DNA of 64,000 nt from Mustelus asterias. Taxonomy: Eukaryota. Under the pieces are notes generated by a model that had not been told where the DNA came from, searched no databases, and saw only the letters and a list, made by a program, of their open reading frames with translations. This document shows, in pieces, positions 8,466 through 63,094 of the stretch. Where the stretch lies: the NCBI RefSeq assembly GCF_964213995.1, contig NC_135826.1:37076001-37140000 (forward strand), written 5' to 3'. The translations under genes were made by a program, and so were the position numbers. The number at the start of each line of letters is the position of its first letter. Position 1 is the stretch's first letter.

Positions 8466-8585
8466 ACGTCGATGAATGTTCCAGCAGCCCTTGTGTGAAT
8501 GGTGACTGCGTTAACACACCCGGCGCTTACCACTGCAAGTGTCACGATGGTTTCCAGAGTACTGCCACCAAGCAGGCCTGTATCG
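8466..8585 (+). CDS. FBN3: Fibrillin exon, cbEGF3
   Basis: cacag|AC..G|gtgag; [40 protein letters not shown]; 120 nt. Confidence 0.95.
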
Positions 8586-9234
8586 GTGAGTCCAGCCACA
8601 GAGATCAGAGTCTGCAAACTCCTCCTCAACCAGTTAATGAATGCATTCTGTTTGTCCCCACAGCTCACTGGTTCCACCTTAATCTTGTTATTACCTATAT
8701 ATTGATATGGTTTATTGGCAACGATAAGATAATGCACTGGGAACAATTTTAACATAGCTTTGCAGATCTCTACTAAAACAAATACGACACAAATCAAATG
8801 TCCTCCCTCCTCTTCTATTTAGAACAACTACAGTCATTTGCATTTACATTTATGAGTTGGAATACTCTCCCCTTGCCTGGGTGAGTGCAGCTCCAACAAC
8901 AATCAGGAAGCTTGTGTTCATCCAGCTCGCTTGATTAGCACCCCAGCCACGAATGTTCATTCCTTTCACCACCAGAAAACAGTGAGAGCCGTGAGTACCA
9001 CCTTCAAGATGCACTGCAGGAACTCACCAAGATTCCTGAGACAGCGCCTTCCAAACCCACGACTGCTACCATCTAGAAGGACAAGGGCAGCAGATAGCTG
9101 GGAATACCACCACCTGGAAGTTCCCCTCCAAGTCACTCACCATCCTGACTTGGAAATATATCGCCATTCCTTTACTGTCTCCAGGTCAAAGTACTAGAAT
9201 TCCCTCCTTAACAGCACTTTGAGTCTCCCTACAT

Positions 9235-9380
9235 AGCAGATACCCACTCCATCTGACGAAGGAGCAGCGCTCCGAAAGCTAATGGCATTTGCTACCAAAT
9301 AAACCTGTTGGACTTTAACCTGGTGTTGTTAAAACTCTTACTGTGTTTACCCCAGTCCAACGCCGGCATCTCCACATCAT
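9235..9380 (+). mobile_element. Short Penelope-like pLTR insertion (family A)
   Basis: 12-bp TSD GTCTCCCTACAT at 9223-9234 and 9381-9392; same sequence as the pLTR at 62894-63094. Confidence 0.8.
9249..9285 (+). ncRNA. Minimal type I hammerhead ribozyme motif
   Basis: ccat-CTGACGA-a-ggagc/agc/gctcc-GAAA-gc-TA-atgg: stem I ccat/atgg, 5-bp stem II, palindromic AGCT stem III. Confidence 0.7.
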
Positions 9381-9726
9381 GTCTCCCTACATCACATGGA
9401 CTGTGGTGGTTTAAGAAGGCAAATCACTATCACCTTCTCAAGGGCAATTAGGAATGGGCAACAAATGTTGGTCTATCCAGCAGCGCCCACATCCCACAAA
9501 TGAATTTTTTAAAAGCCATAGCAAATTTAGTATAGTAAACTGTCCCAAGGCACTTCACAGAGAGAGAAATTTGACACCAGCCACAGAAGGGGATGTTACG
9601 ACAAGTGATCGAAAGCTTGGTGCAAGAGGTAAGATTTAGGAGTGATTTAAAGGGAGATAGAGAGGCGGAGAAGTTTAGGACCAATATTCCAGACTTCAGG
9701 ACTTACATAGCTATCAATGGTCAATG

Positions 9727-10050
9727 AGCAGCATGGTGGCACAGTGGTTAGCACTGCTGCCTCGCAGCGCCAGGGACCCTGGTTCAATTCTGGCTTCGGG
9801 TCACTGTCTGTGTGGAGTTTGCAAGTTCTCCCCGTGTCTGCGTGGGTTTCCTCCAGGTGCTCTGGTTTCCTCCCATGGTCCAAAGATGTGCGGGTTAGGT
9901 GGATTGGCCATGCTAAATTGCCCCTTAGTGTCTGGGGGACTAGCTGGGCCTGAATGCATAGGGATAGGGCCTGGGTGGGATTGTTGTCAGTGCAGGCTCG
10001 ATGGGCTGAATTGCCTCCTTCTGCACTGTAGGGATTCTTTGATTCTATGA
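9727..10050 (+). mobile_element. HE1-type V-SINE
   Basis: tRNA-like head TGGCACAGTGG..GGTTCAATTC, V core, CR1-like tail. Confidence 0.85.
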
Positions 10051-11592: not shown

Positions 11593-11718
11593 ATATAGAC
11601 GAGTGTATCCAGAACGGGGTTTTATGCAGGAACGGCCGGTGTGTTAACACTGACGGAAGCTTCCAATGTATCTGCAACGCTGGCTTCGAGCTCACCCCTA
11701 ATGGAAAGAACTGCATTG
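11593..11718 (+). CDS. FBN3: Fibrillin exon, cbEGF4
   Basis: tttag|..|gtaag; [42 protein letters not shown]; 126 nt. Confidence 0.95.
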
Positions 11719-16499: not shown

Positions 16500-17300
16500 G
16501 TGCAGGGCAGGTGGATGAGGCGGTTAAGAAGGCTTATGGGGTACTTGCCTTCATTAGCCGAGGCATAGGAAGGATTGGGAAGGATTGCGTTGCATTCAAG
16601 AGCGTGCAGAGGAGATTCACCAGGACGTTGCCTGGGCTGGAGGGTTTCTGCTATGAAGGGAGGCTGGTTAGGCTGGGTTAGAGAAGTGAAGGCTGAGGGG
16701 GGGAACCTGATTGAGGTGCACAAGATTATGAGGGACGTAGATAGGGTAGTCAGGAAGAAGCTTTTCCTCTTAGTAAAGGGGTCAATAACCAGGGAGCGTA
16801 GCTTTAAGATAAGGAACAGGAGATTTAGAGGGGATTTGGGAAAAAGTATTTTCACCCAGTGGGTGGTGGCAGTCTGGAACTCAGTGCCTGAAAGGGTGGT
16901 GGATGCAGGAACCCTCACAATATGTAAGAAGGCCATCATGTGGAGATGCCGGCGTTGGACTGGGGTGGGCACAGTAAGAAGTCTCACAACATCAGGTTAA
17001 AGCCCAACAGATTTATTTGGAATCACGAGCTTTCGGAGCGCTGCTCCTTCACCAGTTGAGTGACTCATGATTCCAAATAAACCTGTTGAACTTTAACCTG
17101 GTGTTGTGAGACTTTTTACAATATATAAGAAGCATTTAGACGAGCACTTTAAACGCCACAGCATACAAGGCGACGGACAAAGTGCTGGAAAATGGGATTA
17201 GAATAGATAGGTGCTTGGTGGCCGTATCTTGGTGGCCCAGATACGATGGGCCGAATGGCCTCTTTTTGTGCTGTAACACTCGATGGTTCTGTGATTCTAT
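16500..17300 (+). mobile_element. CR1 3' fragment carrying a PLE family A fold-back insertion (about 16932-17117)
   Basis: CR1 peptides VQRRFTR.LPG and FTQ.VV.VWN; near-TSD ACAATAT(G/A)TAAGAAG at 16917-16931 and 17118-17132. Confidence 0.75.
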
Positions 17301-26551: not shown

Positions 26552-26764
26552 CAGTAAGTAGTCTCACAACACCAGGTTAAAGTCCAACAGGTTTATCTGG
26601 TAGTACCAGCTTTTGGAGCACTGTCCCTTCATCAGGTGAGAGACTCACCTGATGAAGGAGCAGCGCTCTGAAAGCTGGTACTACCAGATAAACCTGTTGG
26701 ACTTTAACCTGGTGTTGTGAGACTACTTACTGTGCTTACCCCAGTCCAACATCGGCAACTCCAC
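26552..26764. mobile_element. PLE family A fold-back element with hammerhead-like cores on both strands
   Basis: 89-bp arms at 26552-26640 and 26644-26732; TSD CTAATGGATCAG at 26543-26554 and 26765-26776. Confidence 0.8.
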
Positions 26765-32517: not shown

Positions 32518-32719
32518 CTTGGATAAAAGCAAATTACTGCGGATGCTGGAATCTGAAACCAAAAGAGAAAATGCTGGAAAATCTCAGCAGGTCTGGCAGC
32601 ATCTGTAAGGAGAGAAAAGAGCTGACGTTTCGAGTCCAGATGACCCAAAAGGGTCAGCTCTTTTCTCTCCTCACAGATACTGCCAGACCTGCTGAGATTT
32701 TCCAGCATTTTCTCTTTTG
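32518..32719. mobile_element. PLE family B fold-back element
   Basis: 67-bp arms at 32560-32626 and 32653-32719; TSD CCCTCATGTAC at 32507-32517 and 32720-32730. Confidence 0.8.
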
Positions 32720-43803: not shown

Positions 43804-43995
43804 ACACAGTAAGAGTTTTAACAACACCAGGTTAAAGTCCAACAGGTTTATTTGGTAGCAAATGCCATTAGCTTTTGGAAGGAGCAGCGCTCTGAAAGCT
43901 AATGGCATTTGCTACCAAATAAACCTGTTGGACTTTAACCTGGTGCTGTTAAAACTCTTACTGTGTTTACCCCAGTCCAACGCCGGCATCTCCAC
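43804..43995. mobile_element. PLE family A fold-back element
   Basis: Arms at about 43804-43875 and 43895-43966; TSD ACATTGAGGAC at 43795-43805 and 43996-44006. Confidence 0.8.
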
Positions 43996-44039
43996 ACATT
44001 GAGGACTGTCAGAATTAGAATCAACCATTACTATTCAAG

Positions 44040-58824: not shown

Positions 58825-60290
58825 TCTACTGGTACTTCTTTCTGTTTAGTTTATTTGCTGCTCACAATCTGTTCTCCTCTAAACTGCGGAGACCAAATGT
58901 AGGCCGGATGATCACTTTGCAAAAAGCCTCCATTCGGTCCGTCAATGTGACCCTGAGTTTCCAGTCTCCAGTCATTTTAATTCTCCACTTTACTCCCACC
59001 CTGACCTTTCTCTCCTCGGCTTCTGCACTGTTCCAATGAAGATTAGAAAGATTAGAAACCCTACAGTGCAGAAGGAGGCCATTCGGCCCATCGAGTCTGC
59101 ACCGACCACAATCCCACCCAGGCCCTCCCCCCACATATTTTACCCGCTAATCCCTCTAACCTATGCATCCCAGGACTCTAAGGGACAATTTTTAACCTGG
59201 CCAATCAACCTAACCCGCACATCTTTGGACTGTGGGAGGAAACCGGAGCACCCGGAGGAAACCCACGCAGACACGAGGAGAATGTGCAAACTCCACACAG
59301 ACAGTGACCCGAGCCGGGAATCAAACCCGGGACCCTGGAGCTGTGAAGCAGCAGTGCTAACCACTGTGCTACCGTGCCGCTCAAGGCAAACTCGAGGAAC
59401 AGCACTTTACCTTTCAACTGGGCACTTTACAGACTTATGGACTCATCACTTGAGTTTAACAATTTAAAATCATAACCTCTTCCCTATTTTTTTTCCTTTT
59501 TCTCACTGTGTGTTCTATTTGTTGTTCCTTCTCTCTTACTTCCTTTTGTTTGCTTTCCAAAGGCAACTATTCAGGACCTTACCATTCACACCTCCTCAAG
59601 ACACATCGTGGGCAGGGTTTTCTGGCTGCGCTCGCCCCAAAACTGGAAATACTGCCTCACAATGCCAGGGAACCGGGTTCAATTCTGGCCTTGGGTCACT
59701 GTCTGTGTGGAGTCTGCACGTACTCCCCGTGTCTGCGTGGGTTTCCTCCGGGTGCTCCGGTTTCCTCCTACAGTCCAAAGATGTGCGAGCTAGGTTGATT
59801 GGCCGTGCTAAATTGCTCCTGAGTGTCGGTGGGATTAGCAGGGTAAATACATGTGGGCCTGGTTGGGATTGTTGCCAGTGCATCCTCGATGGGCTGAATG
59901 GCCTCCTCCTGCACTGTATGTATGGTGTGCTATGGTATGGAAAGTTCCGCCCGAGGTCAATGGACATTTGCATGGTCCACGCCCGCCTGCTACGATCCCC
60001 GTGGTGGGCGGGACGGCACCCTTATGTTTCTTTACTCTTTCTATTCCAAATCCCTTTGGCGTCGCACCAGGAAACCTCTTGTCATTTAATCTCTCTTGCC
60101 CTCCAGCTGATCACAGACCTTCTCCTTTTGTTCTTTTTCCACCCTCCTCCTTTTTACTTGCTCGAAGCCAATTACATTTCGAATCTTTCCTGGTCCTGAT
60201 GATAGGTCAGTGACCCGAAACATGAATCATTGTTTTCCTCTCCACGGATGCTGCCGGATTTATTGAATATTTCCAGCAATTCCTGTTGTT
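58825..60290 (+). mobile_element. Decayed Penelope-like element 3' part: GIY-YIG endonuclease remnant plus family B pLTR; interrupted by two V-SINEs and a MITE
   Basis: Peptides ETKCRPDDHFAKSLHSVRQCDPEFPVSSHFNSP and KLEEQHFTFQLGTLQTYGL; CTGATGA..GGTC-agt-GACC-CGAAA at 60196-60220. Confidence 0.7.
59040..59380 (-). mobile_element. HE1-type V-SINE (young); an opposite-strand copy at about 59650-59940 sits inside a MITE
   Basis: Full head, V core and tail. Confidence 0.85.
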
Positions 60291-61877: not shown

Positions 61878-62583
61878 TGAACCCCGGCAGCCGCTTCAGG
61901 CTTTTTTGGTACAGGAACGTGCTGTAGTTATTGTGGAAATCTAGACATCTTTCCCTTCCATCTATCCATAGTATTCTCTCTCGACTACAATGAGGTCCAA
62001 TCAATCTTCCATCTTTCTGGACTGACTGATCCAGTTTGTTTTTAGCTTATGGAGCTAAATATACAATTTAACTAAAAGTAAAAAATGTGAACTCTTCAAT
62101 TCTGTTGATCTTATATCCTACTGTAACTCCAATCTCACTCTTCCTGTTTCCCCAATCTCTCTCTTTAATCTCACTCACTCTGCTTTCCCTACTTTTCAAT
62201 ATAACTCCAAACCCTCTTGATGTCTCCGACTGCAAGCCTCTGCCTCTGCGTTTCACCCCTTCTCTCTTGATGAGCTGCCCTTTCTCCAATCCCTCTCTCC
62301 CTGTTCTCTATCTACCTCACTGACCATCACCATCATTTCAGAAATGTGTAACATTTCATTTTTCTTCATTGAATTGTAAATGCCACCTATGTGCCCATCC
62401 TGTCAGCCTGCGTACGTCCTGTTGCAATCTTTCACAGTCGTCCTCATATTTTCCCACAACAAGTTGCTGTTATCAATACATTTCAACAATGGTCCTTCAA
62501 TTCCTAAGGCCAGATCAATTCTATATAATGTAGACAAAAGCAGTCGATGGAACACCACGGCCAGAAGTTTCTGCTGCAAGCAA

Positions 62584-63094
62584 GTTTATTTGGTAGCAAA
62601 TACCATTAGCTTTCGGAGCGCTGCTCCTTCGTCAGATGGAGTGGAAATGTGCTCTCAAACAGTGCACAGAGACACAAAATCAAGTTACAGAATACTGATT
62701 AGAATGCGCACACATGAGGACGGCCTAACCCGGGATATTGGATTTATGTCACATTATCAGTAACCCCCACAGCTTGCCTCCTGGACTTGCGGGCTGTCCT
62801 GTCTGGAGACAATACACATCTCTTTAACCTGTGCTTAATGCTCCCTCCACCCACATTGTCTGTATCTTTAAGATCTGGCTGGTTGTAGGGATTCGCATTC
62901 TAATCAGTATTCTGTAACTTGATTTTGTGTCTCTGTGCCCTGTTTGAGAGCACATTTCCACTCCATCTGACGAAGGAGCAGCGCTCCAAAAGCTTATGGT
63001 ATTTGCTACCAAATAAACCTGTTGGACTTTAACCTGGTGTTGTTAAGACTCTTACTGAGTTCACCCCAGTCCAACGCCGGCATCTCCACATCAT
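62584..63094 (+). mobile_element. 5'-truncated Penelope-like (Neptune-type) element: inverted pLTR + ORF end + direct pLTR + 3' extension
   Basis: 62584-62708 is the reverse complement of 62894-63018; intervening peptide RTHEDGLTRDIGFMSHYQ* resembles the GLNRDxGF C-terminus of PLE GIY-YIG ORFs. Confidence 0.8.
62603..62639 (-). ncRNA. Minimal type I hammerhead ribozyme motif, intact core
   Basis: Reverse complement ccat-CTGACGA-a-ggagc/agc/gctcc-GAAA-gc-TA-atgg, identical to 9249-9285. Confidence 0.7.

What the first reader, a model, noticed from the sequence alone, without database searches (positions are those of the whole stretch)
9223..9392. 146-nt TSD-flanked element carrying a minimal hammerhead ribozyme, sense to the fibrillin pre-mRNA
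Seen: ccat-CUGACGA-A-[GGAGC-agc-GCUCC]-GAAA-GC-UA-augg, with a predicted cut after 9281, inside a short insertion with a perfect 12-bp TSD. Established: Penelope-like elements carry minimal type I hammerheads in their pLTRs, with a tiny palindromic helix III thought to need dimerisation. Inference: a ribozyme-bearing non-autonomous or truncated unit in a vertebrate ECM gene intron. It is the only fully canonical sense-strand copy I found here, so any intron self-cleavage would occur at this site.
Basis: partly seen in the sequence, partly recalled or inferred. Interest (0 to 1): 0.7.

Follow-up and report, generated by a model that had tools for sequence, protein, structure and literature searches.

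The report
Shark Penelope stump with minimal hammerhead
This 146-base insert in a shark fibrillin intron is the broken-off end of a very common jumping gene; it carries a small self-cutting-RNA motif of a known kind that likely cannot cut on its own, so it is likely an ordinary passenger.

Summary
The insert (9235-9380), the 12-bp TSD, the minimal type I hammerhead motif (predicted cut after 9281) and its sense orientation in a fibrillin intron are all present. It is not a mini-element of its own. It is the last 146 nt (pseudo-LTR end plus tail) of an endonuclease-bearing, Neptune-type Penelope-like retrotransposon of a shark. Sister subfamilies have intact 893-aa RT/GIY-YIG copies. The core motif has 42,927 exact genomic matches, and 12 bp is the family's modal TSD. 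Across subfamilies the stems stay paired while N7, N17 and loop II vary, so the motif matters to the element. Published minimal hammerheads of this kind are inactive as monomers, and no intact sense-strand partner lies in the window, so intron cleavage is unlikely. Sister copies show no spike of 5' ends at the predicted cut. Family side results: a symmetric target motif (TG..TSD..CA) and a pile-up of 5' ends just upstream of the ribozyme. The scan noted this family before on other DNA, including this genome. New member of a known kind; low interest.

The parts
9223..9234 (+). left copy of 12-bp target-site duplication
   Evidence: empty-site alignment
9235..9380 (+). 5'-truncated Penelope-like element end (3' part of pLTR plus tail), 146 nt
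9235..9241 (+). 5' strand of a predicted distal helix I (pairs with 9287-9293); the insert begins at its first base
   Evidence: pair probability 0.73-0.94, predicted
9249..9252 (+). helix I, 5' strand (CCAU)
9253..9260 (+). core CUGANGA plus the extra unpaired A before helix II
   Evidence: consensus in PMC4209133
9261..9273 (+). helix II (5 bp, 3-nt loop)
9274..9281 (+). GAAA, palindromic AGCU in place of helix III, UH; predicted cut after 9281
   Evidence: sequence; cut position by established hammerhead numbering, untested
9282..9293 (+). helix I 3' strand (9282-85) and distal-helix 3' strand (9287-93)
9298..9303 (+). AATAAA hexamer of the pLTR, sense to the host gene (use untested)
9341..9380 (+). 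optional tail between the family's two preferred 3' ends; ends at the AT of the element's start codon
9381..9392 (+). right copy of the TSD
8855..9510 (+). older host repeat, LINE-like 3' remnant (approximate limits), interrupted by the insert
   Evidence: the LINE family name was not tested
8466..8585 (+). upstream fibrillin cbEGF exon (donor GT at 8586)
11593..11718 (+). downstream fibrillin cbEGF exon

Best explanation
The insert is the last 146 bases of a Penelope-like retrotransposon, likely copied into this intron by an abortive target-primed reverse transcription, and its hammerhead motif is likely a silent passenger. Shown: identity with the element's pLTR end and tail, the 12-bp TSD, family-typical ends, and stem conservation across subfamilies. 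Inferred: the family's RT/GIY-YIG protein nicked both strands 12 nt apart, began copying at the distal start site next to the ORF's ATG, stopped after 146 nt (at the RNA's front end or prematurely) and joined directly to the upper strand. Inferred from published relatives: the motif needs a partner copy or the element's protein to cut, so fibrillin pre-mRNA would be spliced essentially uncut.
For: Two other loci are 100% identical over all 146 nt. 20 of 29 best sisters continue into shared element sequence, with GIY-YIG and RT frames upstream. At least 6 of 16 fetched regions hold a long intact ORF whose ATG follows this sequence, with a second copy after the ORF; 893 aa in L074. Copy numbers are 42,927 (core) and 162,329 (downstream 32-mer), with reversed-pattern controls at 0. 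TSDs of 10 bp or more flank 45 of 93 insertions versus 0-1 in shuffles, mode 12; L126 is a 143-nt twin with a 12-bp TSD. 3' ends fall at insert positions 143-146 in 59 of 98 copies and 109-113 in 26 of 98. 97.6% of stem cells pair in 14 subfamily representatives. 38 of 59 full-length sisters are fully canonical, so an intact motif here needs no host selection. A Schistosoma monomer showed no cleavage (PMC4209133); the Anolis ribozyme cut only with element protein and was not needed for insertion (PMC11167929).
Against: No activity or RNA-end data exist for this sequence. The intact ORF copies found are sister subfamilies (88-93% identical to the insert), not its exact parent. The predicted distal helix I may stabilise this motif more than those assayed. 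An empty allele was not seen in laid runs (uninformative). The GIY-YIG Pfam score was just under the curated cut-off (21.7 vs 22.6 bits) and was not reported on the whole protein.
Confidence: 0.86

Rival explanations
1. The motif cuts the fibrillin pre-mRNA at 9281 at a level that matters, by pairing in trans with another pLTR-bearing RNA or when bound by the element's protein.
For: The motif is canonical, sense-oriented and predicted to fold in intron context (helix I about 0.6, helix II 0.77). Potential partners are abundant. An engineered fast hammerhead in an intron lowers mRNA up to 20-fold in zebrafish, less than 3-fold for weaker ones (PMC11856399, passages).
Against: Minimal motifs are weak even as dimers (PMC4209133). 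The trans helix is 4 bp (-4.5 kcal/mol), and the predicted best two-molecule fold is not the hammerhead dimer. No intact sense partner lies in the window. The insertion is young (identical to two other loci), unlike conserved intronic hammerheads.
Confidence: 0.05
2. The 146-nt unit is a separate non-autonomous mini-element (SINE- or retrozyme-like) that multiplies as a unit.
For: It is short, TSD-bounded and ribozyme-bearing; one other simple copy (L167) starts at the same base; 5' ends pile up in this zone. Retrozymes are proposed to derive from pLTRs (10.64898/2026.07.22.740005).
Against: 5' ends of sisters are spread continuously, 56 of 93 insertions are inverted two-arm forms, the copy is single, not tandem, and it has no sequence that the long element lacks.
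Confidence: 0.05
3. The insert affects the host, if at all, through its sense AATAAA (premature polyadenylation), not through the ribozyme.
For: AATAAA at 9298 is sense to the gene.
Against: It lies about 710 nt below a 5' splice site, where U1 usually suppresses such sites (recalled). No RNA evidence.
Confidence: 0.04

Closest known systems
Minimal hammerheads (min-HHR) in pLTRs of metazoan Penelope-like elements (PMC4209133)
   Same: Fits the published consensus: CUGANGA, one extra base, G10.1-C11.1, 4-bp helix I, palindromic 15.2/16.2, no helix III. The turtle (Chrysemys) row has the same GC palindrome and a similar downstream A-rich motif.
   Different: No shark entry was found in the supplement PDF. 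Helix II is 5 bp, and a 7-bp distal helix I is predicted.
EN+ Penelope-like elements, Neptune/Nematis type (PMC8557442, PMC3846280)
   Same: One ORF with RT then GIY-YIG, CX4CxxC linker, pLTRs, frequent inverted 5' arms, optional 30-40-nt tail on one end, TSDs.
   Different: TSDs centre on 12-13 bp (8-10 bp in the Adineta examples read). Targets show a symmetric TG..CA motif that I did not find in the passages read.
Poseidon_Ac of Anolis (PMC11167929)
   Same: Two 3' end points that bracket the tail; cleavage of both strands; ribozyme in the pLTR.
   Different: There the ribozyme and RT start sites lie inside the ORF start; here the ribozyme is about 100 nt upstream of the ATG and the distal end point is at the ATG. 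Targets here are not AT-rich (46.5% GC).
Non-LTR retrozymes (10.64898/2026.07.22.740005) and conserved intronic hammerheads of amniotes (PMC6155905)
   Same: Type I hammerhead; intronic, sense location.
   Different: Single, not tandem; minimal, not canonical; a young repeat copy, not a conserved single-copy motif.

Membership tests
PLE minimal hammerhead (min-HHR) | Core CUGANGA, GAAA and UH in type I order | tested here: met
PLE minimal hammerhead (min-HHR) | Extra base between A9 and G10.1; G10.1-C11.1; palindromic 15.2-16.2; short helix I | tested here: met
   sequence; compared with the consensus
PLE minimal hammerhead (min-HHR) | Stem covariation across families | tested here: met
   97.6% of cells paired, U-A/C-G swap next to the core (6 vs 8 rows), A-U/G-U/G-C in helix II. 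The 14 rows were my picks, are related, and the 4 subfamily-C rows are aligned 2 nt off in helix I, so these are few independent events.
PLE minimal hammerhead (min-HHR) | Located in the pLTRs of a PLE | tested here: met
   motif on both sides of intact ORFs
PLE minimal hammerhead (min-HHR) | Self-cleavage as dimer or with protein | not testable with these tools
   Indirect test (5' ends of sister copies at the cut) showed no spike:
EN+ Penelope-like element | Single ORF with RT and C-terminal GIY-YIG | tested here: met
   RVT_1 E 2.7e-10; GIY-YIG E 2.6e-4, just below cut-off; motifs at 791-842; several homologs carry PF01541
EN+ Penelope-like element | pLTRs, inverted 5' arms, optional tail, TSD | tested here: met
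Neptune clade | CX2-5CxxC linker between RT and EN (shared with Nematis) | tested here: met
   residue 754; definition from PMC8557442 passages
Neptune clade | RT phylogeny groups with named Neptune references | not tested
   No named reference sequences were obtained (one search hits are unnamed or 'uncharacterized')
Non-LTR retrozyme | Tandem units, each with a complete hammerhead | tested here: not met
   single copy between TSDs
Domesticated intronic hammerhead | Conserved at the orthologous site across distant species | tested here: inconclusive
   no contig spans the site in any laid run; identity to two other loci argues for a young insertion
Rfam hammerhead families | Covariance-model hit | tested here: not met

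The most novel reading that the evidence does not exclude
The tens of thousands of stumps of this shark Penelope family are a genomic record of its insertion chemistry. A symmetric, probably dimeric endonuclease cuts TG-NN-[12 bp]-NN-CA sites. Reverse transcription starts at the tail of the 5' pLTR and runs off at the RNA's start just upstream of the ribozyme, giving strong-stop-like cDNAs such as this insert. The fall in junction rate upstream of the predicted cut may be the footprint of a protein-assisted minimal hammerhead that cuts part of the RNA in the germ line.
Probability: 0.2. Interest if true: 0.55.

Novelty: new member of a known kind. Interest (0 to 1): 0.2.

Why it matters
As a single locus it matters little: at one exact core match per 86 kb, most long shark genes should hold such a copy. 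If the monomer did cut host pre-mRNA, thousands of sense-strand intronic copies would tax shark gene expression, which would be notable but is unlikely. The family is the more useful object. It has intact ORFs, a measurable symmetric target motif and two sharp 3' start points. That makes it a good substrate for the open questions of how Penelope-like elements insert and what their ribozyme does.

Tried and rejected
Rfam: no hammerhead model hits; the miRNA-family hits at 32600 and 43840 are hairpins below gathering score. RNA evidence: no RNA holder listed; laid contigs were swamped by repeat copies and showed neither an empty site nor RNA ends. Cut-site footprint: a sample suggested one (7 of 98 5' ends within 2 nt of the cut), but whole-genome counts did not bear it out. 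Cut window (insert positions 44-48): 669 of 47,674; window 3' of it (53-57): 1,568 of about 132,000; window 5' of it (39-43): 339. After my correction for the chance of passing the pattern (assumed base frequencies) these are about 1.0, 1.05 and 0.4% per base. Ends exactly at the cut (246) exceed those 2 nt upstream (192), but 28 of 30 examined are inverted junctions, mostly a perfect palindrome, against 19 of 30; plain host-flanked starts are not enriched. Cap signature: no single extra G in the 4 TSD-bounded of 15 simple copies that start upstream of the core, and none in this insert; the sample is too small. Family-wide targeting of tail-like DNA: effect tiny (9.45 vs 8.79). One search used a mis-set structure and was redone. 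One search timed out and crashed; they were redone. The dimer energy omitted the distal stems and is not a fair comparison with the monomer. The fibrillin paralogue was not determined. The mixed sample and the subfamily sample overlap in the first 3 Mb of C1, and both arms of inverted insertions were counted.

Full report
Observation. The window holds a 146-nt insert at 9235-9380 between two identical 12-mers. Removing the insert and one 12-mer restores an older repeat that aligns straight across the junction in 17 of 22 hits, so the TSD is real. A descriptor finds this motif and one antisense copy (62635) in the window and none in 50 simulated sequences. Rfam has no matching model. The host gene is a fibrillin on the plus strand: cbEGF exons flank the insert and a TB-domain exon matches fibrillin-1. 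The insert lies about 650 nt below the donor and 2.2 kb above the acceptor. The regex scan found no EGF or TB exon between them.

What it is. Positions below count from the insert's first base. The 29 best sister loci share the 3' end, and 20 of them continue 5' into common sequence. That sequence leads to GIY-YIG and RT frames. Of 16 regions fetched around long frames, at least 6 hold a full element: pLTR with ribozyme, an ORF whose ATG is at the insert's last bases, and a second pLTR (part of that output was cut). The L074 protein has 893 aa with YIDD, a CX4CxxC linker and GIY-YIG motifs. That linker marks Neptune and Nematis elements (PMC8557442, passages); I built no tree. The closest named relatives are from sharks (Mustelus 94%, Scyliorhinus 86%, Heptranchias 84%), then turtles at 43-45%, so the host is inferred to be a shark. 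The intact copies are 88-93% identical to the insert, so they are sister subfamilies. Two other loci are identical to it over all 146 nt, so it is young.

How ordinary it is. The ribozyme core has 42,927 exact matches and a downstream 32-mer 162,329, with controls at 0. In a sample anchored downstream of the ribozyme, 45 of 93 insertions with both flanks (of 100 units) have a TSD of 10 bp or more, against 0-1 in shuffles, mode 12. 56 of 93 are inverted two-arm forms, and L126 is a 143-nt simple copy with a 12-bp TSD. 3' ends cluster at 143-146 (59 of 98) and 109-113 (26 of 98). This is the optional tail of Penelope-like elements (PMC3846280 and PMC8557442, passages), which in Anolis lies between two RT start sites (PMC11167929, parts 1-2 of 4 read). 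38 of 59 full-length sisters are fully canonical.

The ribozyme. 140 of 151 copies could be parsed. Subfamilies differ in helix I (CCAU/AUGG, UCAC/GUGG, UCAC/GUGA, CAC/GUG), helix II, loop II, N7 and N17, while the core letters stay fixed. In 14 representatives that I chose, 97.6% of stem cells pair and slid controls reach at most 61%; these are few independent events. The motif fits the published minimal consensus (PMC4209133; I read parts 1-2 of 4 of the text and part 2 of 3 of the supplement PDF; the other supplement file could not be searched). That paper reports no cleavage of a monomer and low cleavage of dimers. The Anolis ribozyme cut only with the element's protein, was not needed for insertion, and left no RNA ends at its cut site (PMC11167929). 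Folding predicts helices I and II in intron context plus a 7-bp distal helix that starts at the insert's first base; z-scores are modest (-1.6 to -1.9 for the ribozyme, -0.4 for the whole insert). The other sense copies in the window are 17 kb or more away and defective.

Does the family show cleavage? I tested whether sister copies begin at the cut. A sample hinted at it (7 of 98). Whole-genome counts gave about the same rate in the cut window and 3' of it, and about 0.4 of that just 5' of it (corrections are my arithmetic with assumed base frequencies, and the 3' window pools more subfamilies). Among 70 cut-window loci, 30 were plain host-flanked insertions and their starts were spread over positions 44-48. 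Copies starting exactly at the cut are mostly inverted junctions (28 of 30), many a perfect palindrome centred on AT; a similar palindrome forms at positions 53-54. There is no spike, but the step down upstream of the cut is not explained and leaves partial cleavage open. A separate pile-up of 5' ends lies in the 20 nt upstream of the core: 35 of 153 versus 12 in the next stretch of about 60 nt, and 19 of 98 versus 14. This insert starts in that zone. It may mark the RNA's start, since the Drosophila promoter lies in the pLTR (PMC2377424, passages), or fold-back hot spots.

Target site. Among 190 unique TSD-bounded sites, TG stands at -4/-3 in 105 and CA at +3/+4 in 110, against 6-8% at other offsets; for 12-bp TSDs 44 and 47 of 57. 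This fits a symmetric, two-strand cut (inference; PMC11167929 reports both-strand cleavage and a predicted dimer). This site matches the right half, and its left TG is one base off. One search for a published target preference listed two papers; the parts of PMC4209133 that I read do not report it, and I saw PMC12910113 only in the listing.

Mechanism. Shown: origin, ends, TSD, family statistics. Inferred: staggered 12-nt cut, priming at the distal start site, stop after 146 nt, direct joining. Inferred from relatives: a lone minimal motif is near silent. An engineered fast hammerhead can lower mRNA from an intron (PMC11856399, passages), so the host-effect idea is testable but needs activity that this class lacks.

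Novelty. The kind is published. A search for Penelope, hammerhead and shark returned only a review that names the shark for its head shape (passages of PMC6155905), and the 2014 supplement PDF has no shark entry. A 2026 preprint covers one chondrichthyan for tandem retrozymes (10.64898/2026.07.22.740005; part 1 of 5 and passages; its supplements were not seen and may list this family). The scan holds 236 notes with these words, none near this window and none by sequence. Verdict: new member of a known kind, interest 0.2.

Noticed in passing
G000, 190 TSD-bounded sites in fetched loci: Symmetric target motif: TG at -4/-3 and CA at +3/+4 around the TSD (105 and 110 of 190 vs 6-8% at other offsets), sharpest for 12-bp TSDs.
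   Followed up: yes
window 9219-9402: The empty target resembles the element's own tail end more than 139 of 140 sister sites and 698 of 700 control windows; it may be chance or local microhomology.
   Followed up: partly
window 43804-43996, 26552-26764, 16935-17107, 62581-63094: Inverted two-arm insertions of the same Penelope family; the first gives the miRNA-like Rfam hairpin hit.
   Followed up: partly
window 32571-32708: Another long hairpin with weak miRNA-family hits; it looks like an inverted stump of a second repeat family with a GAAA-CG-UC end, core not canonical.
   Followed up: no
window 60196-60220: CUGAUGA..GAAA motif with a different helix II; it fails the descriptor and may be a decayed copy of another family.
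   Followed up: no
L073:3542-6220 (-), L074:2802-5480 (+), L075, L076: Near-identical full-length elements with open ORFs and two pLTRs, so one subfamily may be recently active.
   Followed up: partly
L232: A sister copy sits beside nearly the same position of the same host repeat as this insert.
   Followed up: no
window 9720-9900: A second common repeat, SINE-like by recall, lies in the same intron.
   Followed up: no
P0054: A Heptranchias epn2 gene model contains this element's RT; it may be exonisation or a misannotation.
   Followed up: no
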